In this document: one piece after another, positions 11,314-22,438 of the stretch
How positions within the stretch are numbered: the stretch's first letter is position 1
How the letters are laid out: each line of letters starts with the position of its first letter
Origin: Candidatus Latescibacterota bacterium
Lineage (GTDB): Bacteria; Latescibacterota; UBA2968; UBA8231
Length of the DNA: 64,000 nucleotides
Reading direction: 5' to 3'
Assembly: GCA_965217585.1 (NCBI GenBank)
Contig: OZ244561.1
Location: 3,968,001-4,032,000 of the forward strand
Notes under the pieces: model-generated
Databases searched by the model: none
What the model saw: the letters and a program-made list of their open reading frames with translations, nothing else
Told to the model about the DNA's origin: nothing
Position numbers and translations under genes: made by a program

Positions 11314-12285
11314 ATGAAGCAGATTGTGCGACAACTGGACATCCTGCGGACGCTTCAGGCACGGCGTTACGGAGCGAGCGTTCGCGAACTGGCAGACGAG
11401 TACAAAGTAGATAGGCGCACCATACAGCGCGATCTGGAAGACCTGCGCGAGGTAGGGTTTCTGATGGACGAACGGCGCACCGATCAGCGCATTTACTACC
11501 AACTACAAAAGGACACCAAGCTGCCACTGAACTTTCCGATCATGGAAGTCGCGGCGATGATCTTTGCCGAGCAAGCGGGCATGGGGCTGGTGGGGACGCC
11601 GTTCGGCGAGCACCTGCGGTCGGCGATTCGCCGGCTGACCCAAGCCATGCCCCCGGAGATGCGGCAATTCCTAGAGCGAGCCGCAGAGGCTTACGTGCCG
11701 CTGGCGCGCGGGCACAAGCCCTATGAAGACGCCCGAGAGATACTCGAAAACCTGCACGACGCCATACTGGAGCGCCGCGTGTGCTGGGTGAGCTATCGCT
11801 CGCCGGGGGCGGAGGCCCGGCAGTACAATATCGAACCGCTGCGCCTCCTGCCGCACCGAGGCGGTCTGTACGTGATTTCGCGGATGCCTTACTACGACCA
11901 GCTCATTACGCAGGCGGTGGATCGCTTTGAGGCGGTGGACGTGACCGAGGAGGAATTCGAGCCGCCGGATCACCTGTCGGTTGACGAACGATTGAGCAAT
12001 GCGTTCGGCATCTCATCCGAGGAGCCGATGGACGTGGTGGTTCGGTTCACCGAGGAGCAGGCACCCTATATACGGGAGCGGATCTGGCATCCGAGCCAGA
12101 CGCTGGAAGAAATGGACGACGGTCGGATAGTGCTGCGGCTGCGGGCCGGGGGGTTTTACGAGATCAAGAGTTGGGTGTTGAGCTTTGGAGCGGCGGCTGA
12201 GGTGCTGGAGCCGGATGAGTTGCGGGAGGCGGTGCGGGAAGAGATGCGGGCGGCGCTGGGATTGGATGACGAGGGTGCGACGTGA
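11314..12285 (+). CDS. HTH-WYL-WCX transcriptional regulator (YafY/DriD/PafBC-like)
   Basis: wHTH ELADEYKVDRRTIQRDLEDL; WYL core SYRS..IEPLRL...GLYVI; WCX tail WHPSQ...WVLSFGAAAEVLEPDELRE. Confidence 0.93.
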   Translation: MKQIVRQLDILRTLQARRYGASVRELADEYKVDRRTIQRDLEDLREVGFLMDERRTDQRIYYQLQKDTKLPLNFPIMEVAAMIFAEQAGMGLVGTPFGEHLRSAIRRLTQAMPPEMRQFLERAAEAYVPLARGHKPYEDAREILENLHDAILERRVCWVSYRSPGAEARQYNIEPLRLLPHRGGLYVISRMPYYDQLITQAVDRFEAVDVTEEEFEPPDHLSVDERLSNAFGISSEEPMDVVVRFTEEQAPYIRERIWHPSQTLEEMDDGRIVLRLRAGGFYEIKSWVLSFGAAAEVLEPDELREAVREEMRAALGLDDEGAT

Positions 12286-12458: not shown

Positions 12459-13636
12459 GGCTTTGTTGCATGAAACCAGGTCGGCTGTGTTGGCCTCTTG
12501 GTTTTTTGGTTTACGCTTTTTTTGTGATCGGATAGGACTCGGGTTTGGCCAACGCGAGCAGTCGGTTAAGTACCGCACAACCCAACCGTGTTTCGGTCTG
12601 TTGGTGGGGTAAGGTTCGGGCGCGTAAGGTATCGCCGAGTATCTGTTTATAGCGGCCTATCTGCGTTTCGGCGATCGAGCGGCGATGATAGCCGCTGTCG
12701 TTTTTCCAGGTTCGACGGCCCCGTTGGCGGATCGCTCGAATCGTCTCATCGCGGGGTAACGGCTCGGCGTGAGTGTTGCCATGTTGCTCGATTTTGGCGT
12801 CCTTGCGCGGCGGAATGATCGGGCGAATAGGCCGGCCTTGATCGGGCGCGGCCAACGCGTCGAAGACCTTGCGCTTATCATAGGCTCCATCGCCACCCAA
12901 CGCGACCACGGACGCTTCGACTTGCTGCAGCAACGGCTCCACCTGCGAGGCATCATCTCGGCGGTTGGTGGTCAAGGTCTGTGCGACGATTTCGCCGGTA
13001 GCCTCGTTGACCCCTAGGTGCAATTTGCGCCATGCGCGCCGCTTCGTCCAACCGTGCTGACGCACCTTCCACTCGCCTTCCCCATACACTTTCAGCCCCG
13101 TCGAGTCAACCACCAAGTGCAGGGGTTGGTCGGTACGCTGGGGCGGTAGATCCACCGCCAAATCCGCCTGACGGCGAGACCAGGTCGTGTGATCGGGCCC
13201 CTGTAGATCCAGTCCCATCAAGGCCAAGATGGAGCCGACAAAGCCCTCGGTTTGGCGCAGCGGCAAATGATAGAGCATCCGTAGCGTCAACGCCGTTTGG
13301 ATGGCTCCATCCGAAAAGGTGTATTGCGCTCCCCGCTGGGAGGGCCCTTGATAATACCAAGCTTGAACCGCTTGGGGGCTAAACCACACCGTCAGACTCC
13401 CCCGCTGTTTAAGGCCGGCCTCGTAGGCAGACCCATTACGCACCCGGTATACGACCTTCGGGCGACCGCGAGCAAACTTGACCGGGGAGGAAGAAGACGA
13501 TACCTTGGGCATGACAGGTTCCTTGGACGAGAAAGCATGGATTTTTTGCCAAAAAGGTCCTGCCCAAACTACTAAGGAACCTGTCTTTATTCAACCAATG
13601 AACACAAGAAAAACCGACGATTCATGCACCAAAGCC
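12459..13636 (-). mobile_element. IS5-family, IS903-group element without target duplication
   Basis: IRs GGCTTTGTTGCATGAA (12459-12474) and TTCATGCACCAAAGCC (13621-13636), 1 mismatch; flanks do not match. Confidence 0.88.
12511..13512 (-). CDS. IS5-family (IS903 group) transposase
   Basis: LKQRGSLTVW, LPLRQTEGF, VVDSTGLKVYGEGEW, WRKLHLGV, DGAYD, GYHRRSIAET. Confidence 0.95.
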   Translation of the reverse strand: MPKVSSSSSPVKFARGRPKVVYRVRNGSAYEAGLKQRGSLTVWFSPQAVQAWYYQGPSQRGAQYTFSDGAIQTALTLRMLYHLPLRQTEGFVGSILALMGLDLQGPDHTTWSRRQADLAVDLPPQRTDQPLHLVVDSTGLKVYGEGEWKVRQHGWTKRRAWRKLHLGVNEATGEIVAQTLTTNRRDDASQVEPLLQQVEASVVALGGDGAYDKRKVFDALAAPDQGRPIRPIIPPRKDAKIEQHGNTHAEPLPRDETIRAIRQRGRRTWKNDSGYHRRSIAETQIGRYKQILGDTLRARTLPHQQTETRLGCAVLNRLLALAKPESYPITKKA

Positions 13637-15663
13637 ACTTTCTGGCGCAACTGGAGGACTTTCAAAAGCAACTCTGGCTGAAGAAAAAGTTTGTACTCGA
13701 AACCAACTGGTGTGTTACTCTAAATCGCATCCCGAAGGCTTTGTATCCCGAGATCGCCACCAACGCGGCACAGTGCGAGGAATGGGTTGAGTTGTTCGCC
13801 GTTGACGAAATTCCGGGTGATCTGATAAACGGAGGTGCGACTTGGAGCAATCCGCCGAGTCTCGATTTCCTCAAGGCCAACCCCTACCTGGTGCTGGACA
13901 CGCGGCACTTTGACCGCGATTTCACCGACCGACTGCTGGCGGCACTCTCCGACTCTGGATCGCTTGATGAGCAGTTGGACGGTCTGCTGGTGCATGGCGA
14001 AAATTTTCAGGCGTTGAATCTGCTGCAAGCACGGTATCATGGGCAGGTGCAGTGTGTCTATATCGATCCTCCGTACAATACAGATGCGACACCGATACTG
14101 TACAAGAATGACTTAAAAAGTTCATCGTGGCTAGGTTTACTACATTCTCGATTGATACCAACCATGACTCTTCTAGAACGCAATGAACATGCCTTATGCG
14201 TTGCGATTGATGATACTGAGTTAGCAAATCTTTCAAAACTAGTCGAGATTGACTTCCCACACTATGAACTCCACCGTGTTATAGTAAATCACTATCCGGG
14301 ATCAGGAACGGGACGAAGCAACGTAACACGTACACACGAGTATGGTTTATTTTTAGTCCCTAAGGATGTTGACATCGTCAGAGGAAAAGCTAAATCGGAT
14401 GGAAAACGCGAAAGAAACTTTCGTAGGAGCGGGACCGGAGAAAATAATTATCGAACTGGTCGTCCAAATAGTTTTTACGCAGTTGTGGTCAATCCGAAGA
14501 CCTATAAGATCATTCGTGTCGAAGAACCACCAAGACTTGGCTCTAGCTATCCAAAAGAAACAACTGAAGAAGGATACATTCGTATTTATCCGATTGGAAA
14601 AGATGGATCTGAACGAGTATGGACTCTTAGCTACGAAAGAGCTAAGTTAGCTTTGAAGCAGGGGACACTTTTATGTACACAGAATCTTTCAATAAACAGA
14701 ATTTACGAAGACAAAAACTCCAGAAGTTTGTTAAAAAGTGTATGGCTAGATAAAAAGTATAATGCTGTAACAAACGGCACAAATCTCTTGAAAGATCTTT
14801 TTAGTGTCTCGAATTTATTTTCTTATCCAAAATCAATATTTACAGTTCAAACATCCATAGATGCGATCATATATGAAAATGATGAGGCTATTGTACTCGA
14901 CTACTTCGCTGGCTCCGGCACCACCGGCCACGCAGTTATCAACCTCAACCGCGAGGATGGTGGACAGCGCAAGTATATTTTAGTAGAAATGGGCCATCAC
15001 TTCGACACAGTTCTGTTGCCGCGAATAAAGAAAGTCATCTATTCACCAGATTGGAAGGATGGCAAGCCGGTTTCGCGCAATGGCGTCACGCAGTTGTTCA
15101 AGTACATCCGACTGGAATCGTATGAAGATACGATGGACAGTCTTGAAGTGACGCCACCTTCAGATGCACAGCAGGCTTTGCTGGCCGAGAATACCGCGCT
15201 GGCCGAGGATTATCGGCTGCGCTACGCACTCGGTGTGGAGACTGCTGGTAGTGCGTGTCTGCTGAGCAAGGCGTTCGCTGATCCCTTCACCTACACGCTC
15301 TCCGTCGTGCGCGATGGTGTGCGCCGAGAAGTTCAGGTTGATCTGCCCGAGACCTTCAACTACTTGATCGGTTTGTGCGTGGTATCCCGCCAGCGGATTG
15401 ACGGTGTGCTCGCTATCACAGGCATAGACCCCGAAGGGCGCAACTGTCTGATCCTCTGGCGCAATCTTGACGAAACGGACCACGCCTCGCTGGACACCTA
15501 TTTTGATCGTAATCGTGAACAATTCGGATCACTGGACATCATCTACGCCAACGGCGACCACACTCTGAACGCCATGCAGCAATACGGCGAGAATTGGACT
15601 GCAAAGACCATTGAGCCAATTTTTCGTGAATTGATGTTTGGGGGGGCCAACAATGAGCAATAA
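13624..15663 (+). CDS. mod: type III R-M methyltransferase (Mod), 5'-truncated at the IS
   Basis: YIDPPYN and LDYFAGSGTTGHA motifs in beta-class order; the only in-frame ATG at the start lies inside the IS IR. Confidence 0.85.
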   Translation: MHQSHFLAQLEDFQKQLWLKKKFVLETNWCVTLNRIPKALYPEIATNAAQCEEWVELFAVDEIPGDLINGGATWSNPPSLDFLKANPYLVLDTRHFDRDFTDRLLAALSDSGSLDEQLDGLLVHGENFQALNLLQARYHGQVQCVYIDPPYNTDATPILYKNDLKSSSWLGLLHSRLIPTMTLLERNEHALCVAIDDTELANLSKLVEIDFPHYELHRVIVNHYPGSGTGRSNVTRTHEYGLFLVPKDVDIVRGKAKSDGKRERNFRRSGTGENNYRTGRPNSFYAVVVNPKTYKIIRVEEPPRLGSSYPKETTEEGYIRIYPIGKDGSERVWTLSYERAKLALKQGTLLCTQNLSINRIYEDKNSRSLLKSVWLDKKYNAVTNGTNLLKDLFSVSNLFSYPKSIFTVQTSIDAIIYENDEAIVLDYFAGSGTTGHAVINLNREDGGQRKYILVEMGHHFDTVLLPRIKKVIYSPDWKDGKPVSRNGVTQLFKYIRLESYEDTMDSLEVTPPSDAQQALLAENTALAEDYRLRYALGVETAGSACLLSKAFADPFTYTLSVVRDGVRREVQVDLPETFNYLIGLCVVSRQRIDGVLAITGIDPEGRNCLILWRNLDETDHASLDTYFDRNREQFGSLDIIYANGDHTLNAMQQYGENWTAKTIEPIFRELMFGGANNEQ

Positions 15664-16546
15664 TCAATACCAATCCGAAGATCATCTTACATTCTCGCAG
15701 CGTTATGGTTACGCGCCCTTGCTGGATCCGATGCAATTGGAGGATCTTTCGGATGATCTAAGGCGAGAATTATGGAATGTAACTCGGAAATTACTTCTAT
15801 CGCTAAGAGGGATCAACTCATTATTGACTCCAAAATTTGAAGAAGGTACTCTGTTTATTGAACGTGTACTGGGCAAGTATTTGAAGAAGCCAGAAGATGA
15901 AATCAGTACTTCTTATGAATTTGCGAAGGATAATTTTAAAAACTTGATTCTGCAAGGCAGTTTCAATGAGGTTCTTGATTTTGTTGAAATTATGGTAAAC
16001 GAAAGAAGGTATGATAAGGAATTTATCAAACGTATCAGTGAATCATTTGAAAGATGTGCCGCTGCGTACTGGTTAGACAAATCTAACTATCCGTATCAAA
16101 TTTTCCCGCGCAGTAATAAGGCGCAGGGCGAGGCAACACAAGAAGCCATCAAAACGGTCCGCGATGGCGGTATGAAAGGTGCAGAGGCGCACTTGTGCCA
16201 AGCGGCAGAATATATTAACGCACAGCGATTTGCTGAGTCAATTAAAGATAGCATCCACACGGTTGAATCTGTTGCTCGCCAAATTGATCCAAAATCAAAA
16301 ACCCTTGGTCCTGCGCTAAACTCTCTCGAGAAAGCCGGTTTGATAAAGCATCCAGCACTCAAAGAAGCGTTCTCAAAGCTGTATGGCTATACCAGTGACG
16401 AACAAGGGATTCGGCACGCGTTACTCGATAAGAACTCTCCAGATGTTGACCTAGACGAAGCCATGTTCATGTTTGGAGCCTGCGCGTCCTTTGCCGCCTA
16501 TTTGGTAAGCAAACACCATAAGATGCAAGAAGAGGATGACAAATGA
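15653..16546 (+). CDS. AbiJ-N-terminal-domain-like protein, putative abortive-infection effector
   Basis: TFSQRYGY...LSDDLRRELWN N-terminus; ESIKDSIHTVESV...KLYGYTSDEQGIRHA C-terminus; overlaps both mod and res; AT-rich. Confidence 0.65.
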   Translation: MSNNQYQSEDHLTFSQRYGYAPLLDPMQLEDLSDDLRRELWNVTRKLLLSLRGINSLLTPKFEEGTLFIERVLGKYLKKPEDEISTSYEFAKDNFKNLILQGSFNEVLDFVEIMVNERRYDKEFIKRISESFERCAAAYWLDKSNYPYQIFPRSNKAQGEATQEAIKTVRDGGMKGAEAHLCQAAEYINAQRFAESIKDSIHTVESVARQIDPKSKTLGPALNSLEKAGLIKHPALKEAFSKLYGYTSDEQGIRHALLDKNSPDVDLDEAMFMFGACASFAAYLVSKHHKMQEEDDK

Positions 16547-19500
16547 CACGCCTACAGAGCCGCCTTGCCCTCCATCGCTTCGTTTGTCTGGAATTCGGCT
16601 ACGATGACATGGACGCGATGCTCGAACGGTTGCACTATGCCCAGGGCGAACTCATCTCAGAAGGCACGAGCGACTATGCCCAATCGCTACAGCCCTATCC
16701 TACACGAGCCCTCGTTACCCCCGACCAGTTTGCCGAATACGACGCCAACATCGCGGCGCACAGCCGCCAGCTTCGTATGACAGAGGAACACGGCCGGACC
16801 TGGAAACCCCATCAATACCTCGCCCTGTTATTCACCGAACACTATTTACAGCGCTATTTCGACGATCCCGAGACCCTATGCGCCGACCTGAATCATGAGA
16901 AGGCCAGCCATCAACCAACTGCGAGCATGCCGGACTACACGGTAGAAGACCTGCACACCCTCGCTTTCCAGAGCGCGACGGGTTCTGGCAAAACGCTCCT
17001 CATGCACGCCCATATTCTGCAATACCGGCATTATTTGGACCGTGCGGGAAAGCGGCTAAACAATATTGTGCTGGTGACGCCGAATGAGCAGATGTCCATG
17101 CAACACGAGCGCGAGATGCAGGAAAGCGGTCTGCGGGCACGGCTATTTTCCAGCGAAGCCGGTTCTGACTTGTTCACATCCGTCGAGATCATCGACCTGA
17201 ACAAACTGGCCGAAAAAAAGGGCGTAAAGCGCGTTGCGGTAACGGATTTCGGCGACGACAATCTGGTGCTGGTTGACGAAGGACACCTAGGCGCATCGGG
17301 CAATGTTTGGCGCGAACGCCGCCGAGAATTGGCGAGCGGAGGCTTTGCGTTTGAATACTCCGCGACCTTCAATCAAGTAGCGGGCAAAGACAACGACCTG
17401 CTAAACGCCTACGGCAAATGCCTGCTATTCGACTACACATACCGCCGATTCCATGCAGATGGCTACGGCGAGGATTACGCCATCCTGAACCTGCCGGGCG
17501 GGGTGCAGGACGAAAACAGCGACATGTACCTGCTGGGTTGCCTGCTGACCTTCTACCAGCAATACCGCATCTATCGAGACAAGGGCGCTTTGTGGAAAGC
17601 ATTCAATCCGGCAAAACCGCTGTGGGTATTCCTCGGCAAGACCGTGACGGGATCGAGCAAAGCAGACCAGGCGACCCGATCCGATGTCATCCGCATCCTG
17701 AATTTTCTCGGTTGGGTGCTGGCCCACGGCGAAGACGTGCGGGCCATGATCCAACGCCTATTAGCCGGGAAATCGGGATTGCTCAACAGTACCGGCAACG
17801 ATTGCTTTGCTGGCCGCTTTTCCCATTTGCCGAGCGGGGAAGACCTCTACGCCGATCTCTGCGAGACTCTGTTTCACGGAGCGGGACGGCTGCACATCGT
17901 CTATCTGACCGCAGGCGAGGGCGAATTGCACCTTCGCACCGCGGACAATGATCCTTTTGGCGTGGTCAATGTCGGGGACTCGACGAAGCTCTACAATCTG
18001 CTCACGGAAAGCCCTAACCCCGATTTCGCTGTTGATCGAGAGATGGGCTTTGTCGCCCGGCTGTTCGCCGATGTGGACCGCCCAGATTCAACCGTGAACA
18101 TTGTCATCGGCGCACGGCGTTTTATTGCAGGCTGGAACTCATGGCGGGTGAGCACGATGGGACTGATGCATGTCGGCGTGAACGAAGGTCCTGAAATCAT
18201 CCAGATGTTCGGACGCGGCGTGCGTCTGAGGGGCTATAATATGAGCCTGAAGCGGCACCGCGAAAGCGAAGTGGAACTGCCGGAGGACAGTGATGAACTG
18301 GCGGAATTGGAGAAGCTATACATTTTTGGGCTGCGAGCCAACTATATGCAGACTTTCCGGGATCTTCTGGAAAAAGAAGGAATGCGCGCCGAACAGGAGA
18401 CTTTCAGCTTTCCCATCACATGGAACTTTGCCAAGAAGACAGACCTGAAGCTGATCCGACTCAAGGATGACCGAAAATACAACCTCTCCGCTAAGCGTCC
18501 CGTCCTGCCGGGGCCGACTGATAGTAACCGCATAGTGACGCTGGATCTATATTCACGACTTCAATCCGTCGCATCCGATGGATCTGCGTTCAGTGAGGGA
18601 ACAGAACAAGATTCGGTCAGCCTCGCGTCACACGCCACCTTCTTCAACACAGCCCGTATTTACGAGCGGCTGTTATCGCGCAAGCAACAAAAAAGCTGGC
18701 ACAATCTGGTTATTGAACCGTGGACTGTGGAACAGCTATTGCAAAGCGATAACTGGTACGAACTCTATATGCCGCCAGATCGGTTGAACGCCACCGGATT
18801 CAAGCAGATGCGCGGATTGGAGAACATCGCCCTTGATCTGCTCACCGAATACGCCGATAACTTCTGGCGCAGGCAGCGCAGACGCTGGGAACACGACGAG
18901 ATTGAGGTCGTCGCGCTGGAAGAGGATGATCCAAACAATGCCGTAAGCTACGAGCTATCCGTGGATGTAACCAAAGGTCAGTTGGTCAAGGACGCGGGGG
19001 AACTGGCGTACAATATCCGCGAGGGCCAGTGCGACGAGTTAAAAGAATGGTATGAGCACTTGAAAATCGGCGTCATTTGGTCACAAGCTCATGCGTATCA
19101 GCCACTGCTACATACCCGGAAGGATCGCATCGTTACAGTTCAACCTGTACCCTTGGACGAAAACGAGAAGCGCGTTGTCGAGCAGCTGGAAGAGCTGACC
19201 CGGAAAGGTGATCCCTGCTTACAAGGCAAAGAGTTGTTTCTGATTCGCAATCTGACCCGCGGTCGGGGTGTGTCCTTTTTCGACGACTTCGGTTATTACC
19301 CGGATTTCATCGTCTGGTTGAAGGACGACGTACATCAGCACGTTCTCTTTCTCGATCCGAAGGGCTTGAGCCGGTTCGGCCAAAGAGAACGCAAAAAGGT
19401 GCAACTACACCACGAAATCGCGGAAATTGAGGAGCGAGTGCGCGAGAACGACGCGGACTTGTACCTGCATGCCTATATTTTGTCCGTCACGCCGGCTTCG

Positions 19501-19842
19501 GAGATTGATGATGGCAGTCGTTCTGTGAATGAGTGGAAAACGGATGGTGTTTATTTTTTAAATGAGGCTGATTGCATCCAACAGGTCATCCAACATGCGT
19601 TAGGACTCTCTGATGGGGAAACCACGATGCAACTAGATCCCGAGACCGAGCGACGGCTCGACCTGCTGGTGTCCGAGACCGGGCGCAGCAAGGCTTTTTA
19701 CCGGCGTGAGCTCACTAAACGCAGCCTTGAGGACATCGAGGACTACTACCTCGCCATGGCCGTGCTAGAACGCGTCCGCCAAGGAGAGGAAAAGGTCCAT
19801 TCCTCCTCCGAGGTGAGAAAAGCACTTGGCTTGGACGATTGA
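16543..19842 (+). CDS. res: type III restriction subunit (SF2 helicase + PD-(D/E)xK nuclease) with a C-terminal RelB/CopG-like antitoxin extension
   Basis: ATGSGKT, DEGH, QMFGRGVR, YPDFIVW..FLDPKG; last ~72 aa MQLDPETERRLDLLVSETGRSKAFY...LEDIEDYYLA...VRKALGLDD. Confidence 0.88.
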   Translation: MTRLQSRLALHRFVCLEFGYDDMDAMLERLHYAQGELISEGTSDYAQSLQPYPTRALVTPDQFAEYDANIAAHSRQLRMTEEHGRTWKPHQYLALLFTEHYLQRYFDDPETLCADLNHEKASHQPTASMPDYTVEDLHTLAFQSATGSGKTLLMHAHILQYRHYLDRAGKRLNNIVLVTPNEQMSMQHEREMQESGLRARLFSSEAGSDLFTSVEIIDLNKLAEKKGVKRVAVTDFGDDNLVLVDEGHLGASGNVWRERRRELASGGFAFEYSATFNQVAGKDNDLLNAYGKCLLFDYTYRRFHADGYGEDYAILNLPGGVQDENSDMYLLGCLLTFYQQYRIYRDKGALWKAFNPAKPLWVFLGKTVTGSSKADQATRSDVIRILNFLGWVLAHGEDVRAMIQRLLAGKSGLLNSTGNDCFAGRFSHLPSGEDLYADLCETLFHGAGRLHIVYLTAGEGELHLRTADNDPFGVVNVGDSTKLYNLLTESPNPDFAVDREMGFVARLFADVDRPDSTVNIVIGARRFIAGWNSWRVSTMGLMHVGVNEGPEIIQMFGRGVRLRGYNMSLKRHRESEVELPEDSDELAELEKLYIFGLRANYMQTFRDLLEKEGMRAEQETFSFPITWNFAKKTDLKLIRLKDDRKYNLSAKRPVLPGPTDSNRIVTLDLYSRLQSVASDGSAFSEGTEQDSVSLASHATFFNTARIYERLLSRKQQKSWHNLVIEPWTVEQLLQSDNWYELYMPPDRLNATGFKQMRGLENIALDLLTEYADNFWRRQRRRWEHDEIEVVALEEDDPNNAVSYELSVDVTKGQLVKDAGELAYNIREGQCDELKEWYEHLKIGVIWSQAHAYQPLLHTRKDRIVTVQPVPLDENEKRVVEQLEELTRKGDPCLQGKELFLIRNLTRGRGVSFFDDFGYYPDFIVWLKDDVHQHVLFLDPKGLSRFGQRERKKVQLHHEIAEIEERVRENDADLYLHAYILSVTPASEIDDGSRSVNEWKTDGVYFLNEADCIQQVIQHALGLSDGETTMQLDPETERRLDLLVSETGRSKAFYRRELTKRSLEDIEDYYLAMAVLERVRQGEEKVHSSSEVRKALGLDD

Positions 19843-20083
19843 GTACACCGACACGGCCGAAAAACAGCTTGGCAAGCTCGATAGGCAGACAGCCCGACGC
19901 ATCGTCGATTATATGAATGAACGTGTTGCAGTGCTTGATGACCCACGGCACTTGGGCGAGGCACTGACCGGCCCATTGAGTGGGCTATGGCGTTATCGGG
20001 TGGGAGGTTATCGCGTGATTTGCGACATTCAGGATCGTGTCTTAGTGACGAGGGTCGGCAGTCGCGGTCAAGCGTACCGATAA
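19826..20083 (+). CDS. relE: RelE/ParE-family toxin
   Basis: MAWTIEYTDTAEKQLGKLD...GEALTGPLSGLWRYRVGGYRVICDIQD; TTG start overlapping the upstream antitoxin domain. Confidence 0.9.
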   Translation: MAWTIEYTDTAEKQLGKLDRQTARRIVDYMNERVAVLDDPRHLGEALTGPLSGLWRYRVGGYRVICDIQDRVLVTRVGSRGQAYR

Positions 20084-20228
20084 TTTGACCCCTCGCTATA
20101 GATCTCAATACTGGATTTCGAGTTTCGTCGCCAGAATCCGCCTCATATTCGGCGCTACGAGCTTGAGGGTCGCCGACTTGGAAACAAGCGCGATTACCGG
20201 CTGACCAAACTCTCACCGCATCTATTCA

Positions 20229-21029
20229 TTAATTATTTATTCCCGAAGTTCGAACGGACGCGCGAACTTGGCCCCCGTGTTCCGCCAGCCAAGAGCGGAA
20301 AAATTGCAACACGGCTGCGCCGTCTCCCTGCTGTCGTTGTTTCCGCTGAATGAGCCATAGCTCGATCTCGACGCCCCGCAGATCCGGGTTTAGCCCTCGG
20401 GCTTGGGGACTACCGTGGAAACGCTTGAAATTTGGCTGACTCTTGTAGAACGAAATCGCGTCGCTGTTTTGTAGGAGATCCGAAACGATGATGAGACGCC
20501 GCGGAACATCGCGCCGCTTGGTACTCTGAAAATGCTTTATGGCAACCGACTGCACCGATTCCATGATCGGCGACGATTTCGCCTCTTTATTGGTGAGCAG
20601 CTTTCTAAGCTCCTCTTCTAAAGGTGCGCGAAATTTCTGCTGCCAGTTACGCCGAATGATCGCTTCGGATTGAGTAAGGTGATCGACGTTTTCCGGGTCG
20701 CCGGGACTACAGACTCTGATAATCGGGTCGAGGCTCCCACCATGCGTAGGGTCCACCGCAAAAAGACTGATCTCGTGATTTTCCTCGATCTCATCGAGCA
20801 GGTTCCAGATCCTAGTCTCCAGATCGGACTTGGTAGTGGGCATGAACGAATCCGTGCGATCGAGCAGGATTGCCGTAATCGCCGAGGGACCCTCCGACCG
20901 GCAAAGGGTCTGCGGATCGCGCTCGACCGACGGCGGCTTTAGCACCACAAAAACGAGCAAGATAACGACGACCCCCACGATCATCGCACCGCCTGCTATC
21001 GTTTTATTCGATAGCTTACCTTTACTCAT
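20229..21029 (-). CDS. membrane-anchored hypothetical protein with a vWA-like fold
   Basis: N-terminal TM helix; AILLDRTDS (MIDAS-like), SPIMES, LIIVSDLLQN; TAATG coupling to the upstream gene. Confidence 0.65.
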   Translation of the reverse strand: MSKGKLSNKTIAGGAMIVGVVVILLVFVVLKPPSVERDPQTLCRSEGPSAITAILLDRTDSFMPTTKSDLETRIWNLLDEIEENHEISLFAVDPTHGGSLDPIIRVCSPGDPENVDHLTQSEAIIRRNWQQKFRAPLEEELRKLLTNKEAKSSPIMESVQSVAIKHFQSTKRRDVPRRLIIVSDLLQNSDAISFYKSQPNFKRFHGSPQARGLNPDLRGVEIELWLIQRKQRQQGDGAAVLQFFRSWLAEHGGQVRASVRTSGINN

Positions 21030-22438
21030 TAACTCTCTTCCTGATCGCCCCTCGGGCTATCTGGCTGCCTTCGATGCGGGGCCAAAGGTCTCAATTCCTC
21101 GCTGCCCATATCGTACTGATAGTGCAGCTCCTTTACGCCGTTATCAATTTTTGTCTCCGCCGCGCTGGTGATCTTCAAGATTTCCTCGCGCGTCAGCATA
21201 GCCTTCGGCAAGGTGGTGTCTATTGGCGTTTTCACTATTCGCCAAGTCTTCTTGAATCGCTCTGGCGCTTCTCCGTCTCGCATCGCCCGGTTGGTATCCC
21301 GGTAGAGCTTGAGCAAGTGATTTCCCGCGTGCTCTAAGTGGTCTAGATGGTCGTCGAACGTTTTGATGAGGCGTCGATGGTCGTCGATGATAGAATCGTG
21401 TTGTCGTCCAGCGAGCAAAATGTTTTGCTTGATGTCCTCCAACGCTTGCACCGCCTCATCCGACGTTTTCTTTAATCCCTTTAGGCAGACCTGATAGAGC
21501 GCGTTGTATACTTCGTCGGCCTCCGCGAATACGCGGGCACACTCCGCGTAACCCGGATAGCGATCATCCCACAGGATTCCATCGATAAAGCTAATAATCG
21601 CAAAGAGGAATCCCATGAAGAACAGGATCCACGATTGGAAGTCCCCTAGACCCAATGGATTGTCGCCGAAAGCGGCGATGGCGAGTTTCCCCCCTTCGTC
21701 GAGCACCGTACCCGTTGTTTCCCGATAGTGCGCCACCATCAAGTTGAAAAACAACGCAAAGGCCATAAACACCACGGCACCGGTGATGCCCACGGACTTT
21801 CTGCTCCAGTGGATGTGGTTGAAATTGGTGACGAGGATGCCGAGCAAAAAGGCAATACCGAGATTGACAAACGAGATGACAACTGCCTCTGTGTACGCGC
21901 CGAACAGCCCAAACTCGTTGCCCTTTGCCAAAAAGGAGGCGTTGCCAAAGGTCTCAATGAGAAAGAGCACGGCGATGATGCCTATGTTAAATATCTTATC
22001 GTCCCAGCTACGGGGCTGTGGCTCGCGGCTAAGGCTATTTTGTTCCTTAAACTGCTGCAAGTCTTCTTTTTTTCGGCGCAGATCCTGTTGCTCTCTGCTC
22101 AACTCTACTATGGCCTTATCGACATTCTGATCGAACTCCGCTCGTTGCTTGGCCGTTTCAATCTCAATGGAACTTAGTTGCTCCCGGAAATCTAGCTCGA
22201 CGAGGCGCGCTCTGTATGCTTTTAGCTCGCTCTCGCATATATTCTGTGCCTGTGCTTGAGCGCTCTCAATTAGCCCGATAACCTTGCGTTCTGTGGGGTC
22301 GAGGTCGTCTTCCGCACTATCTAATGCGGGTCGCCCCCGCCTCGCGTTCCGTTGGCTATCTTCTACTATATGCAGATTTTCCGCGACCTTATTGGTGTCG
22401 ATCTTCTCAAACGGGTTGGTGTGAAGATCGTCTGTCAT
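21029..22438 (-). CDS. hypothetical protein with ~4 TM helices between coiled-coil regions
   Basis: 469 aa; four hydrophobic segments flanked by charged helical stretches; GAGGAG RBS. Confidence 0.75.
   Translation of the reverse strand: MTDDLHTNPFEKIDTNKVAENLHIVEDSQRNARRGRPALDSAEDDLDPTERKVIGLIESAQAQAQNICESELKAYRARLVELDFREQLSSIEIETAKQRAEFDQNVDKAIVELSREQQDLRRKKEDLQQFKEQNSLSREPQPRSWDDKIFNIGIIAVLFLIETFGNASFLAKGNEFGLFGAYTEAVVISFVNLGIAFLLGILVTNFNHIHWSRKSVGITGAVVFMAFALFFNLMVAHYRETTGTVLDEGGKLAIAAFGDNPLGLGDFQSWILFFMGFLFAIISFIDGILWDDRYPGYAECARVFAEADEVYNALYQVCLKGLKKTSDEAVQALEDIKQNILLAGRQHDSIIDDHRRLIKTFDDHLDHLEHAGNHLLKLYRDTNRAMRDGEAPERFKKTWRIVKTPIDTTLPKAMLTREEILKITSAAETKIDNGVKELHYQYDMGSEELRPLAPHRRQPDSPRGDQEES

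What the first reader, a model, noticed from the sequence alone, without database searches (positions are those of the whole stretch)
16543..20083. Type III restriction subunit fused in frame to a RelB-like antitoxin, directly upstream of relE
Seen: the Res ORF continues without a stop past its nuclease domain (...IQHALGLSDGETT) into a complete RHH-type antitoxin (MQLDPETERRLDLL..TGRSKAFY..LEDIEDYYLA..ALGLDD), whose end overlaps relE. Known: relBE are normally stand-alone and RelE is released when RelB is lost; I do not know of a described Res-RelB fusion. Inference: RelE could be tethered to the restriction complex so that phage-driven destruction or remodelling of Res frees the toxin (a guard system), or so that res becomes addictive. 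Caveats: an internal ATG at 19627 preceded by GGGGA could yield free antitoxin, the RelE C-terminus looks a few residues short, and the fusion could be a recent accident.
Basis: partly seen in the sequence, partly recalled or inferred. Interest (0 to 1): 0.8.

Follow-up and report, generated by a model that had tools for sequence, protein, structure and literature searches.

The report
Restriction subunit fused to RelB antitoxin
A restriction-enzyme subunit gene really does run without a stop into a complete RelB antitoxin gene just before its RelE toxin, an inherited quirk of a few sponge-associated bacteria whose restriction system is broken in this genome.

Summary
ORF 16543-19842 (1099 aa) is a Type III-like Res that runs without a stop into a full-length RelB-like antitoxin. 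An intact relE overlaps its end. It is not an assembly error: contigs from three other runs bridge the junction without indels, and the same junction occurs in G043, G011 and five protein clusters.

The join is seamless. Res keeps its normal length and the RelB Met follows where relatives have the stop. The fusion is not recent: G000 and G043 differ by dS 0.27, with res dN/dS 0.16.

It was found only in one genus of Candidatus Latescibacterota. Its significance is weaker than proposed:
- The internal SD and ATG19627 also precede relB in relatives that have lost res, so free RelB is very probably made too.
- In this genome mod is split by an IS insertion plus a ~448-kb inversion. None of the 7 genus genomes with this locus keeps an uninterrupted mod-res set there.
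- The RelE C-terminus is not short.

Best reading: a tolerated stop-loss fusion in a mod / PDC-S32 / res::relB / relE operon, giving long and short antitoxin forms. The guard idea is untested (about 0.13). It is a new variant of a known kind, of moderate interest.

The parts
12459..13636 (-). IS element of 1178 bp. Its 333-aa transposase is at 12511-13512 on the - strand. It interrupts mod.
   Evidence: There are 4 copies at 99.9-100% identity in G000, this one included. The 9-bp target duplications match crosswise with the copy at G000 3531632-3532809, which shows two insertions followed by an inversion.
13637..15663 (+). 3' two-thirds of the Type III mod gene. The called 679-aa ORF starts at an ATG (13624) inside the IS end.
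   Evidence: It matches PADLOC MTase_III PDLC03646 only over model positions 369-1053 of 1057. PF01555 also matches. Intact relatives are 1042-1094 aa. The missing 5' part lies at G000 3533917-3532810, about 434 kb away.
15638..16546 (+). 302-aa gene between mod and res, with an AbiJ_NTD4 domain; a candidate defence protein (PDC-S32).
   Evidence: PF18863 at 65.4 bits against a cut-off of 34. PADLOC PDC-S32 at E 1.5e-60. Homologues accompany mod/res in L017-L019 and L040.
16543..19602 (+). Res portion of the fusion ORF (aa 1-1020): SF2 ATPase plus C-terminal nuclease region, ending in helix 1011-1020.
   Evidence: PF04851. REase_III at 1e-149. Invariant TGSGKT 146-151, DEGH 245-248, PD 920-921 and DPK 938-940. 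Native length is kept.
19603..19626 (+). 8-codon junction (GLSDGETT). It takes the place of the variable Res tail and stop of unfused relatives, and carries the SD-like GGGGA (19615-19619) for ATG19627.
   Evidence: Codon alignment with unfused res genes. AF2 pLDDT is below 50 for residues 1023-1029. The same leader precedes stand-alone relB in G010, G014, G002 and G041.
19627..19842 (+). RelB-like antitoxin portion (71 aa plus stop), readable both as the tail of Res and from its own ATG.
   Evidence: NF048017 over 1-70/70 at 88.2 bits. Aligns end to end with 69-75-aa stand-alone homologues. Residues 1063-1097 form the modelled RelE interface.
19826..20083 (+). relE toxin gene (85 aa, TTG start, GAGGTGAG 9 nt upstream). 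It overlaps the end of relB by 17 nt.
   Evidence: PF05016 full length. TIGR02385. PDB 2khe at E 1e-24, 9g12 'Toxin RelE' and 3g5o_B. All 9 invariant columns are kept. dN/dS is 0.15-0.24.
20229..21029 (-). Conserved 266-aa neighbour of unknown function. It marks the native flank of the locus.
   Evidence: 91-94% identical and adjacent to relB or relE in G010, G011, G014, G002, G041 and G043. No Pfam or PADLOC family matched.

Best explanation
This is a genuine, inherited gene fusion. It sits at the 3' end of a defence operon with the order mod, PDC-S32/AbiJ_NTD4 gene, res::relB, relE.

How it arose (inferred): the res stop codon was lost exactly at the boundary with a relBE toxin-antitoxin pair. 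Every Res chain therefore carries a flexible 8-residue junction and a complete RelB domain.

What is made (inferred): the relB ribosome-binding site and ATG19627 survive inside the ORF, so a free 71-aa RelB is very probably made as well. Both forms can neutralise RelE through the C-terminal half of RelB.

What it does (inferred): relBE most likely acts as an ordinary addiction or abortive-infection module, transcribed with the R-M operon from the promoter region upstream of mod. The fusion itself is most likely a tolerated by-product that did not harm Res.

State in this genome (shown): the R-M part has just been inactivated. An IS split mod, and recombination with a second IS copy inverted about 448 kb. 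This carried the mod 5' end, and the region upstream of mod where the operon promoter is presumed to lie, away from the rest.
For: Shown:
- The fusion ORF and its domains.
- The junction is confirmed in contigs of three other runs without indels and in G043, G011 and P0001-P0005, which stand for 38 member sequences.
- The join is seamless. From GVYFL to the C-terminus is 21-39 aa (mode 25) in 113 of 119 relatives (one further relative ends after 11 aa). Here it is 27 aa to the RelB Met. The codon alignment puts that ATG one codon after the position of the stop in L017.
- The fused Res was constrained. dN/dS is 0.16 between G000 and G043 (dS 0.27), against 0.15 for G000 versus unfused G035.
- RelB and RelE are intact. 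Their dN/dS values are 0.05-0.38 and 0.15-0.24, and RelE keeps all 9 invariant columns.
- The co-fold of the tail (2 copies) with RelE scores ipSAE 0.82 against a best control of 0.00. This mark was reached by 58 of 80 solved complexes and 2 of 110 mismatched pairs. Runs agree in at least 87% of contacts, and partner pLDDT is at least 84. This may partly reflect likeness to solved RelBE-type complexes.
- The internal start is usable. G010, G014, G002 and G041 keep only 8-11 res codons plus the same leader, and G014 has no other ATG/GTG/TTG in frame. The purine core (GGGG, GGAG or GAGG) persists while the junction's residues change.
- Operon logic. In G010 the deletion places relB 33 nt downstream of the conserved region that lies upstream of mod in G000 and G011. 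No sigma-70-like + strand promoter is found at 13400-20054.
- mod is split. PADLOC covers only 369-1053/1057, the 5' part is 434 kb away beside an identical IS, and the 9-bp duplications match crosswise.
Against: - No direct evidence shows that free RelB is made in a genome that has the fusion. No raw RNA or ribosome data were available; laid contigs only.
- The fusion has persisted through a dS of 0.27 and through a res allele swap in G011. That could mean it is selected rather than merely tolerated. The 8-codon junction is too short to test for selection on the open frame, because the res-less remnants also lack stops.
- In stand-alone homologues the first strand of the ribbon-helix-helix begins 2-4 residues before the position of M1029 (MxTSIRL against ETTMQL). 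The short form may therefore have a clipped DNA-binding strand, and the long form a fuller one.
- The promoter scan uses an E. coli-type consensus that may not apply to this phylum.
- The mutational path to stop loss could not be reconstructed.
Confidence: 0.6

Rival explanations
1. Guard or tether. RelE is held on the restriction complex by the RelB tail of Res. Phage inhibition, remodelling or proteolysis of Res-RelB frees RelE and aborts infection. This would be a covalent version of the PrrC/EcoprrI guardian principle.
For: - Every Res chain must carry RelB, because there is no stop.
- The tail is modelled to bind RelE: 0.82 against a best control of 0.00.
- Res stayed under purifying selection while fused.
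- The operon also carries an Abi-type gene, PDC-S32.
- RM guardians such as PrrC and PARIS are established (passages of PMC12707154). The immunity-suicide coupling hypothesis proposes that immunity components act as antitoxins (passages of PMC3632139).
Against: - Free RelB from the retained SD and ATG would buffer RelE independently of Res.
- The association is confined to one lineage: 0 of 126 loci from other organisms, and 5 of 119 scorable close Res relatives.
- relBE outlives the R-M system in all 7 genus genomes that have the locus, and relE itself is lost in 3 of them.
- mod is broken in this genome.
Confidence: 0.13
2. The fusion is the only antitoxin, which makes res addictive. ATG19627 is not used while res is translated through it. 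RelE neutralisation then depends on continued synthesis of full-length Res-RelB, which selects against loss or silencing of res.
For: - Ribosomes elongating through the SD could occlude internal initiation (inference).
- All deletions seen in relatives stop upstream of relB and leave it translatable.
- In G011 the deletion joined mod codon 50 to res codon 866 in frame, so relB is still read through from the mod start.
Against: - res was lost or split repeatedly without loss of relE in G010, G011 and G043, so addiction to res did not prevent its decay.
- In G014 the internal ATG is the only start available.
- Restriction subunits are usually made in small amounts, which fits poorly with a labile antitoxin that must exceed its toxin (general knowledge).
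Confidence: 0.1
3. Regulatory tail. The ribbon-helix-helix domain on Res (with or without RelE) binds the operon's own control region and tunes mod/res expression, like a controller (C) protein or like conditional cooperativity in relBE.
For: - relBE appears to share the promoter region upstream of mod.
- RelB-type antitoxins are autorepressors (passages of PMC11980606).
- The long form may have the fuller first strand.
Against: - No inverted repeat of 6 nt or more with spacing of 30 nt or less was found in the 146 nt upstream of mod.
- No binding data exist.
- The AF2 monomer model does not show the strand.
Confidence: 0.05
4. Artefact. A homopolymer error in GGGGAAA at 19615-19621 of a long-read assembly falsely joins two genes.
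For: A loss of one base in that run would end Res at TAG 19634-19636 and give an ordinary overlapping gene pair (reading).
Against: - Contigs of X1, X4 and X7 cross the site with 0 gaps.
- Independent assemblies with different junction sequences are all in frame. Among those with full-length Res these are the P0001, P0002 and P0004 clusters (GLSDGETT, GPSDGETT, RLSDEGTK); the junction is also in frame in the res remnants of G043 and G011 (RLYDGETT, ELSDGETT).
Confidence: 0.02

Closest known systems
Type III restriction-modification systems (Mod plus Res, EcoP1I/EcoP15I type), large-Mod subfamily (PADLOC MTase_III PDLC03646 / REase_III PDLC03654)
   Same: - Gene order is mod then res.
- Res has SF2 ATPase motifs and a C-terminal nuclease motif.
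- Mod has an N6/N4 methyltransferase domain with a swappable middle segment.
   Different: - Res carries a C-terminal antitoxin domain.
- An extra Abi-type gene sits between mod and res.
- mod is split in this genome.
- No solved structure matches Res by sequence, and the fold search gave only generic SF2 helicases at TM 0.26 or less among the first 20 ranks.
relBE-type type II toxin-antitoxin modules (RHH antitoxin NF048017; RelE/ParE PF05016)
   Same: - The antitoxin precedes and overlaps the toxin.
- Both parts are full length.
- The C-terminal half of the antitoxin wraps the toxin in the model.
   Different: - The antitoxin has no stop-delimited gene of its own and no evident promoter or operator of its own.
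- It is also the tail of a 1028-aa enzyme.
PrrC / EcoprrI (and PARIS): guardians of restriction systems
   Same: A translation-blocking ribonuclease toxin is encoded within or beside an R-M locus and is potentially held in check by an R-M component (passages of PMC12707154 and PMC3632139).
   Different: - PrrC is a HEPN anticodon nuclease bound non-covalently to a Type Ic enzyme and triggered by T4 Stp.
- Here the link would be a covalent antitoxin tail on a Type III Res.
- The toxin is a RelE, and no trigger is known. Nothing about activation could be tested.
Rpn 'genes within genes' (RpnL / RpnS intragenic antitoxins)
   Same: A nuclease ORF contains an in-frame internal start that yields its C-terminal domain as a separate small antitoxin protein (abstract and introduction of PMC10400941).
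   Different: - RpnS inhibits the long form itself. Here the small product would neutralise a separate toxin, RelE.
- Internal initiation is inferred, not shown.
- The C-terminal module is a recognisable pre-existing antitoxin gene captured by stop loss.
Fused toxin-antitoxin single-gene modules of the RelE/ParE superfamily
   Same: Translational fusions that involve antitoxin domains are known and can be functional. 195 fusions of a BECR-fold toxin domain with an antitoxin domain are listed (passages of PMC11980606).
   Different: Those fuse toxin to antitoxin. Here the antitoxin is fused to an unrelated defence enzyme and the toxin stays separate. I could not see that paper's supplementary tables, which may list other architectures.

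Membership tests
Type III R-M, Res subunit | SF2 helicase-like ATPase domain with Walker A and DEAH-type motifs | tested here: met
   PF04851 at 27.7 bits against a cut-off of 22.5, aa 136-276. Invariant T146-G-S-G-K-T151 and D245-E-G-H248 across 49 sequences. The naming of the motifs is recalled.
Type III R-M, Res subunit | C-terminal PD-(D/E)xK-type endonuclease motif | tested here: inconclusive
   Invariant P920-D921 and D938-P-K940 fit the motif by eye, and the assignment is recalled. No Pfam nuclease domain matched. The fold search did not resolve this domain.
Type III R-M, Res subunit | Match to a curated Type III REase profile | tested here: met
   PADLOC REase_III PDLC03654 at E 1e-149, aa 288-1009 against model positions 376-1115 of 1154.
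Type III R-M system | An intact Mod subunit encoded with Res (needed for recognition and for Res activity) | tested here: not met
   In this genome Mod covers only model positions 369-1053 of 1057. The 5' part is 434 kb away, separated by an IS insertion and an inversion. A full-length allele, P0192 (1054 aa), exists elsewhere on a contig of the same length (207432) as the contig carrying fusion protein P0002.
Type III R-M system | ATP-dependent cleavage that needs Mod-bound, inversely oriented unmethylated sites | not testable with these tools
   This needs a biochemical assay.
RelB-like RHH antitoxin (NF048017) | Full-length profile match above the curated cut-off | tested here: met
   88.2 bits against a cut-off of 50, positions 1-70 of 70 for the tail. 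81.9 bits within the whole ORF.
RelB-like RHH antitoxin (NF048017) | Cognate RelE/ParE toxin gene immediately downstream, bound by the antitoxin's C-terminal half | tested here: met
   relE overlaps by 17 nt. The co-fold scores 0.82 against a best control of 0.00, with the interface at residues 63-97 of the 99-aa construct. That is a model, not a measurement.
RelB-like RHH antitoxin (NF048017) | Ribbon-helix-helix dimer that represses its own promoter | tested here: inconclusive
   The AF2 monomer shows helices at 1033-1046, 1050-1057, 1062-1079 and 1088-1094 but no N-terminal strand. No own promoter and no inverted repeat upstream of mod were found.
RelE/ParE toxin (PF05016; TIGR02385 RelE_StbE) | Full-length profile match and conserved residues | tested here: met
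   58.1 bits against 23 and 30.6 against 27.9. PDB 2khe at 1e-24 and 9g12 'Toxin RelE' at 1e-4. All 9 invariant columns are kept, and R80 and Y84 are present.
RelE/ParE toxin | Ribosome-dependent mRNA cleavage and toxicity | not testable with these tools
   This needs expression and rescue assays.
PrrC-like R-M guardian | Toxin kept latent by the R-M complex and released when a phage inhibits restriction | not testable with these tools
   Only co-location and a covalent antitoxin tail are seen. No trigger is known.
Rpn-like gene-within-gene antitoxin | Separate translation of the C-terminal domain from an internal in-frame start | tested here: inconclusive
   The SD and ATG are present. The same ATG is the only ATG/GTG/TTG start for relB in res-less G014. 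There is no expression evidence for a genome that has the fusion.

The most novel reading that the evidence does not exclude
Res-RelB could be a natural, covalent form of immunity-suicide coupling. The antitoxin tail would make the restriction complex the keeper of RelE, and perhaps a dimerisation or DNA-binding handle as well. Loss, proteolysis or phage inhibition of Res would then shift the RelB:RelE balance and trigger RelE-mediated shutdown. The free short RelB would set the threshold, as in Rpn gene-within-gene systems.
Probability: 0.13. Interest if true: 0.8.

Novelty: new variant of a known kind. Interest (0 to 1): 0.45.

Why it matters
If the tail matters, this is a ready-made natural construct for testing a long-standing proposal: that immunity proteins act as antitoxins for suicide modules. 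It could be tested with simple stop-restoring and start-killing mutants in a laboratory host.

Even if the fusion is neutral, the locus is a clear worked example of three things:
- How defence operons pick up toxin-antitoxin pairs.
- How a stop loss can create a long and a short product from one frame.
- How such islands decay. Two genomes inactivated the system by IS insertion plus large inversion, and others by nested deletions, while the antitoxin gene is always kept.

For annotation, the 1099-aa call hides a separately translatable relB. The mod gene here should be marked as disrupted.

Tried and rejected
Searches for the fusion elsewhere:
- Scans of genome contigs and metagenome contigs with the 170-aa junction peptide gave 71 + 57 = 128 loci. 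Only L038 (= G043) and L039 (= G011) carry res next to relB.
- Several tblastn matches that reached 2-27 residues upstream of the RelB Met in other phyla turned out to have no res upstream. I treat them as N-terminal residues of those RelB proteins.

Structure:
- Res has no sequence match in the PDB.
- The AF2 model of the whole protein is mediocre (pLDDT 69, pTM 0.42). Foldseek returned only generic SF2 helicases with TM 0.26 or less among the first 20 ranks, and EcoP15I is not among the rows shown. This gives no fold-level test of Type III membership.
- The RelB tail has no meaningful PDB sequence match.

Regulation:
- The sigma-70 and terminator scan found no more sites than shuffled controls (7 against 6.8 and 6 against 7.5). 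None lies on the + strand before 20055. This is weak evidence in this phylum.
- No inverted repeat was found upstream of mod.

Origin of the stop loss:
- The codon alignment shows where the stop used to be, but not the mutational path. I considered a TGATG stop/start overlap at 19611-19615 and dropped it, because that ATG is out of frame with relB.

Expression:
- The only RNA-library evidence is one 8022-nt Logan contig (X17, about 93% identical) spanning mod to beyond relE. A contig shows neither a single transcript nor a level, and DNA can be present in RNA libraries. I do not use it as evidence of expression.

Other checks:
- Pfam on the C-terminal half of the AbiJ_NTD4 protein, the 266-aa neighbour and the 469-aa neighbour gave nothing above cut-off.
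- I first read G010, G014, G002 and G041 as empty sites. I rejected that because their relB leaders still contain res codons ((H)ALGLSDGETT and IQHAL...), with different endpoints.
- I first read the res piece of G011 as a decayed copy. I rejected that because dS is saturated (2.3) with dN/dS 0.10. It is a different res allele joined near window 19567.

- The listing of cluster members. Because of this I could not confirm that P0002 and P0192 lie on the same contig; only the lengths match.
- Supplementary files of papers were not seen.

Full report
THE OBSERVATION

The window holds one ORF, 16543-19842 (+), of 1099 aa with no stop.
- Its N-terminal 1020 residues are a Type III-like restriction subunit. 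PF04851 ResIII scores 27.7 bits against a cut-off of 22.5. PADLOC REase_III PDLC03654 scores E 1e-149. TGSGKT 146-151, DEGH 245-248, PD 920-921 and DPK 938-940 are invariant.
- Its last 71 residues start at the in-frame ATG19627. They match the NCBIfam RelB-family antitoxin model NF048017 end to end (1-70/70, 88.2 bits against a cut-off of 50).
- relE (19826-20083, 85 aa, TTG start) overlaps the end of the ORF. It is a full-length PF05016 / TIGR02385 protein with PDB relatives 2khe, 9g12 'Toxin RelE' and 3g5o_B.
- GGGGA at 19615-19619 lies 7 nt before ATG19627.

IS IT AN ARTEFACT?

No. Logan contigs from three runs of three studies cross 19590-19640 with no gaps: X1 at 18927-19869, X4 at 19368-19854 and X7 at 19368-19860. 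No indel is listed near the junction. X1 may be the sample the genome came from.

Independent assemblies carry the same junction in frame but with different junction sequences:
- GLSDGETT in G000 and P0001
- GPSDGETT in P0002
- RFSDEGTK and RLSDEGTK in P0003-P0005
- RLYDGETT in G043
- ELSDGETT in G011

ANATOMY OF THE JOIN

In the 120 best Res relatives, 119 have the GVYFL anchor. From that anchor the protein ends 21-39 residues later (mode 25) in 113, and one ends after 11. The exceptions are the five fused clusters: four end 97-98 residues after the anchor, and P0005 ends after 61. Here there are 27 residues from the anchor to the RelB Met, so Res is complete.

A codon alignment places the RelB ATG one codon after the position of the stop in unfused relatives. 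AF2 (49-row alignment, pLDDT 69, pTM 0.42) ends Res with helix 1011-1020. It gives pLDDT below 50 for residues 1023-1029, then predicts the RelB helices as a separate module.

The stand-alone homologues of this RelB are 69-75 aa and align over its whole length. Their first strand begins 2-4 residues before the position of M1029.

RelE keeps all nine invariant columns. It ends in ..AYR, as its relatives end in ..(V/A)YR. Its 85 aa against the usual 87-88 aa (89 of 107) comes from a 3-residue internal deletion shared by the genus.

A co-fold of two copies of the last 99 residues with RelE supports binding. ipSAE is 0.82 against a best control of 0.00. This mark was reached by 58 of 80 solved complexes and 2 of 110 mismatched pairs. 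Runs agree in at least 87% of contacts, and partner pLDDT is at least 84. The interface is the C-terminal half of RelB, with no contact to the Res-derived residues. This is a model, and it may lean on likeness to solved complexes.

WHERE IT OCCURS

The genome belongs to a genus of Candidatus Latescibacterota MAGs. Their neighbours in the hit lists are typical sponge symbionts, and one holder run is labelled 'sponge metagenome'.

Of 31 genomes of the genus, 7 have this relB (85% identity or more) next to the same 266-aa neighbour gene:

| Genome | State of the R-M part | relE |
|---|---|---|
| G000 | res whole; mod split | kept |
| G043 | res split at about codon 160 | kept |
| G011 | 282-aa in-frame ORF of Mod codons 1-50 + Res 866-1028 + RelB | kept |
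| G010 | only 11 res codons left before relB, counted from Res H1018 | kept |
| G014 | only 8 res codons left before relB, from Res I1016 | lost |
| G002 | only 8 res codons left before relB, from Res I1016 | lost |
| G041 | only 8 res codons left before relB, from Res I1016 | lost |

In G043 an IS1595-like element sits at the break. The res 5' part and a full-length mod lie 570 kb away beside an inverted 99.7%-identical copy.

Outside the genus, none of 126 further loci with RelB homologues has a res upstream. The closest unfused systems, in another family of the phylum, have no relBE after res. In the large protein collection, five clusters (38 member sequences) carry the tail.

HISTORY

The remnants have different endpoints inside res: window 19150, 19587 and 19595. 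They are therefore independent deletion products of a res::relB ancestor, not empty sites.

The res fragment of G011 is a different allele. dS against G000 is 2.3 and dN/dS is 0.10. It is joined near window 19567 to the same last ~19 res codons plus relB.

In G014 the slot holds a different set: two methyltransferase-like genes and a PLD-like nuclease (named by eye, no family search was run). In G043 another methyltransferase-like gene lies beside the break. This is a variable defence hotspot whose right-hand anchor is relB.

The fusion is old relative to these species. G000 and G043 differ by dS 0.27 in res with dN/dS 0.16. That is the same constraint as G000 against unfused G035 (0.15) and as the flanking gene (0.13). 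The tail therefore did not relax selection on Res.

STATE OF THE SYSTEM IN THIS GENOME

mod is broken.
- The ORF at 13624-15663 covers only positions 369-1053 of the 1057-position MTase_III model.
- Intact relatives are 1042-1094 aa and begin ..LREMFQLDRGDLDFGLYRIM.
- That N-terminal part lies at G000 3533917-3532810, 434 kb away, next to a 99.9%-identical copy of the 1178-bp IS that sits at window 12459-13636.
- The 9-bp duplications match crosswise. ACTTTCTGG joins the two mod halves and GTGCAGATC joins the two other flanks. This is the signature of two insertions followed by recombination between inverted copies.

Type III Res needs Mod for recognition (established knowledge). Restriction is therefore most likely off here, and the region upstream of mod has been carried away from res::relB-relE.

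An apparently intact allele exists elsewhere. P0192 is a 1054-aa Mod that is continuous across the IS site. It comes from a contig of 207,432 bp, the same length as the contig carrying fusion protein P0002.

HOW IT MOST LIKELY WORKS

Shown: there is no stop between Res and RelB, so each Res chain carries RelB.

Inferred:
- A free RelB is also made. The same leader, purine-rich core and ATG serve relB in the res-less relatives, and in G014 no other ATG/GTG/TTG start is open. The core persists (GGGG, GGAG or GAGG) while the encoded junction residues change.
- relBE is transcribed with the operon. No own promoter is detected. In G010 the deletion puts relB 33 nt behind the conserved region that precedes mod elsewhere.

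I therefore read the fusion as a tolerated stop-loss that yields a long and a short antitoxin form. relBE would act as an ordinary addiction or abortive module that outlives the R-M genes.

Against a neutral reading:
- The fusion's persistence could equally mean selection.
- The 8-codon junction is too short to test for selection on the open frame.
- The long form may have the more complete ribbon strand.

COMPARISON WITH WHAT IS KNOWN

The parts are ordinary: Type III R-M, relBE, and an Abi-type PDC-S32 gene. The join is not.

Four full-text searches listed no paper describing a restriction subunit fused to an antitoxin. I read only the listings of most hits. I read passages of PMC2701414, PMC12707154, PMC3632139 and PMC11980606, and the abstract and introduction of PMC10400941. 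Supplements were closed.

The closest concepts are:
- The PrrC/EcoprrI and PARIS guardians (PMC12707154).
- The immunity-suicide coupling hypothesis (PMC3632139).
- Rpn genes-within-genes (PMC10400941).
- Toxin-antitoxin single-gene fusions (PMC11980606).

None of them is a membership. The guardian features could not be tested.

VERDICT

- The feature is a new variant of a known kind, confined to a narrow lineage and mostly found in decaying copies.
- Interest is moderate (0.45). The guard reading remains possible (about 0.13) and would be of high interest if an intact allele showed it.

Noticed in passing
window 12459-13636 and G000 3531632-3532809: Two inverted, 99.9%-identical copies of a 1178-bp IS (4 such copies in the genome) carry crosswise-matching 9-bp target duplications. 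This implies a ~448-kb chromosomal inversion with one end inside mod.
   Followed up: yes
L169 (G043 3831000-3843000) and L036: In G043 res itself is split near codon 160 by an IS1595-like element. An inverted 1856-nt copy at 99.7% identity lies 570 kb away, so this is a second, independent inactivation by IS plus inversion. The PDC-S32 gene was not found between mod and res there.
   Followed up: partly
window 15638-16546: A 302-aa AbiJ_NTD4 / PADLOC PDC-S32 candidate defence gene is embedded between mod and res. Its stop overlaps the res start. Homologues accompany the unfused systems too: upstream of mod in L018 and L019, and between mod and res in L017 and L040. Its C-terminal half has no family match.
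   Followed up: partly
window ~14049-14896: The middle of mod, presumably the target-recognition region, is replaced by unrelated sequence of similar length in other strains. The RNA-library contig has 843 other letters there, many contigs have loose ends at 14896, and there is no DNA homology to L017-L019 across 14082-14890.
   Followed up: no
window 19873-20184; L014, L015, L037: relE-less variants exist. Contigs in X4 and X7 skip 312 nt, and G014, G002 and G041 have relB directly followed by the 266-aa gene. This leaves an orphan antitoxin.
   Followed up: partly
L014 2240-6370: At the same slot upstream of relB, G014 carries two methyltransferase-like genes (417 and 529 aa) and a 429-aa PLD-like nuclease gene on the opposite strand. 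These names are by eye; no family search was run. The site looks like a defence-island hotspot.
   Followed up: no
window 19627-19839: relB has lower synonymous divergence (dS 0.08-0.13) than relE, res and the flank (0.24-0.39) in the same genome pairs. The numbers are small (4-6 synonymous differences). Possible causes are recombination or constraint on the RNA.
   Followed up: no
window 21029-22438 (-) and 11314-12285 (+): The conserved 469-aa membrane protein downstream has only a sub-threshold RexB hit (E 0.027, 15.4 bits against a cut-off of 27). A WYL/WCX/HTH regulator lies just left of the IS, but it became a neighbour only through the inversion.
   Followed up: no
G000 3544470-3547454 and 3722767-3725603: The genome holds two further Res paralogues at 36% and 43% identity. 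The second matches in two pieces, which may mean it is broken.
   Followed up: no
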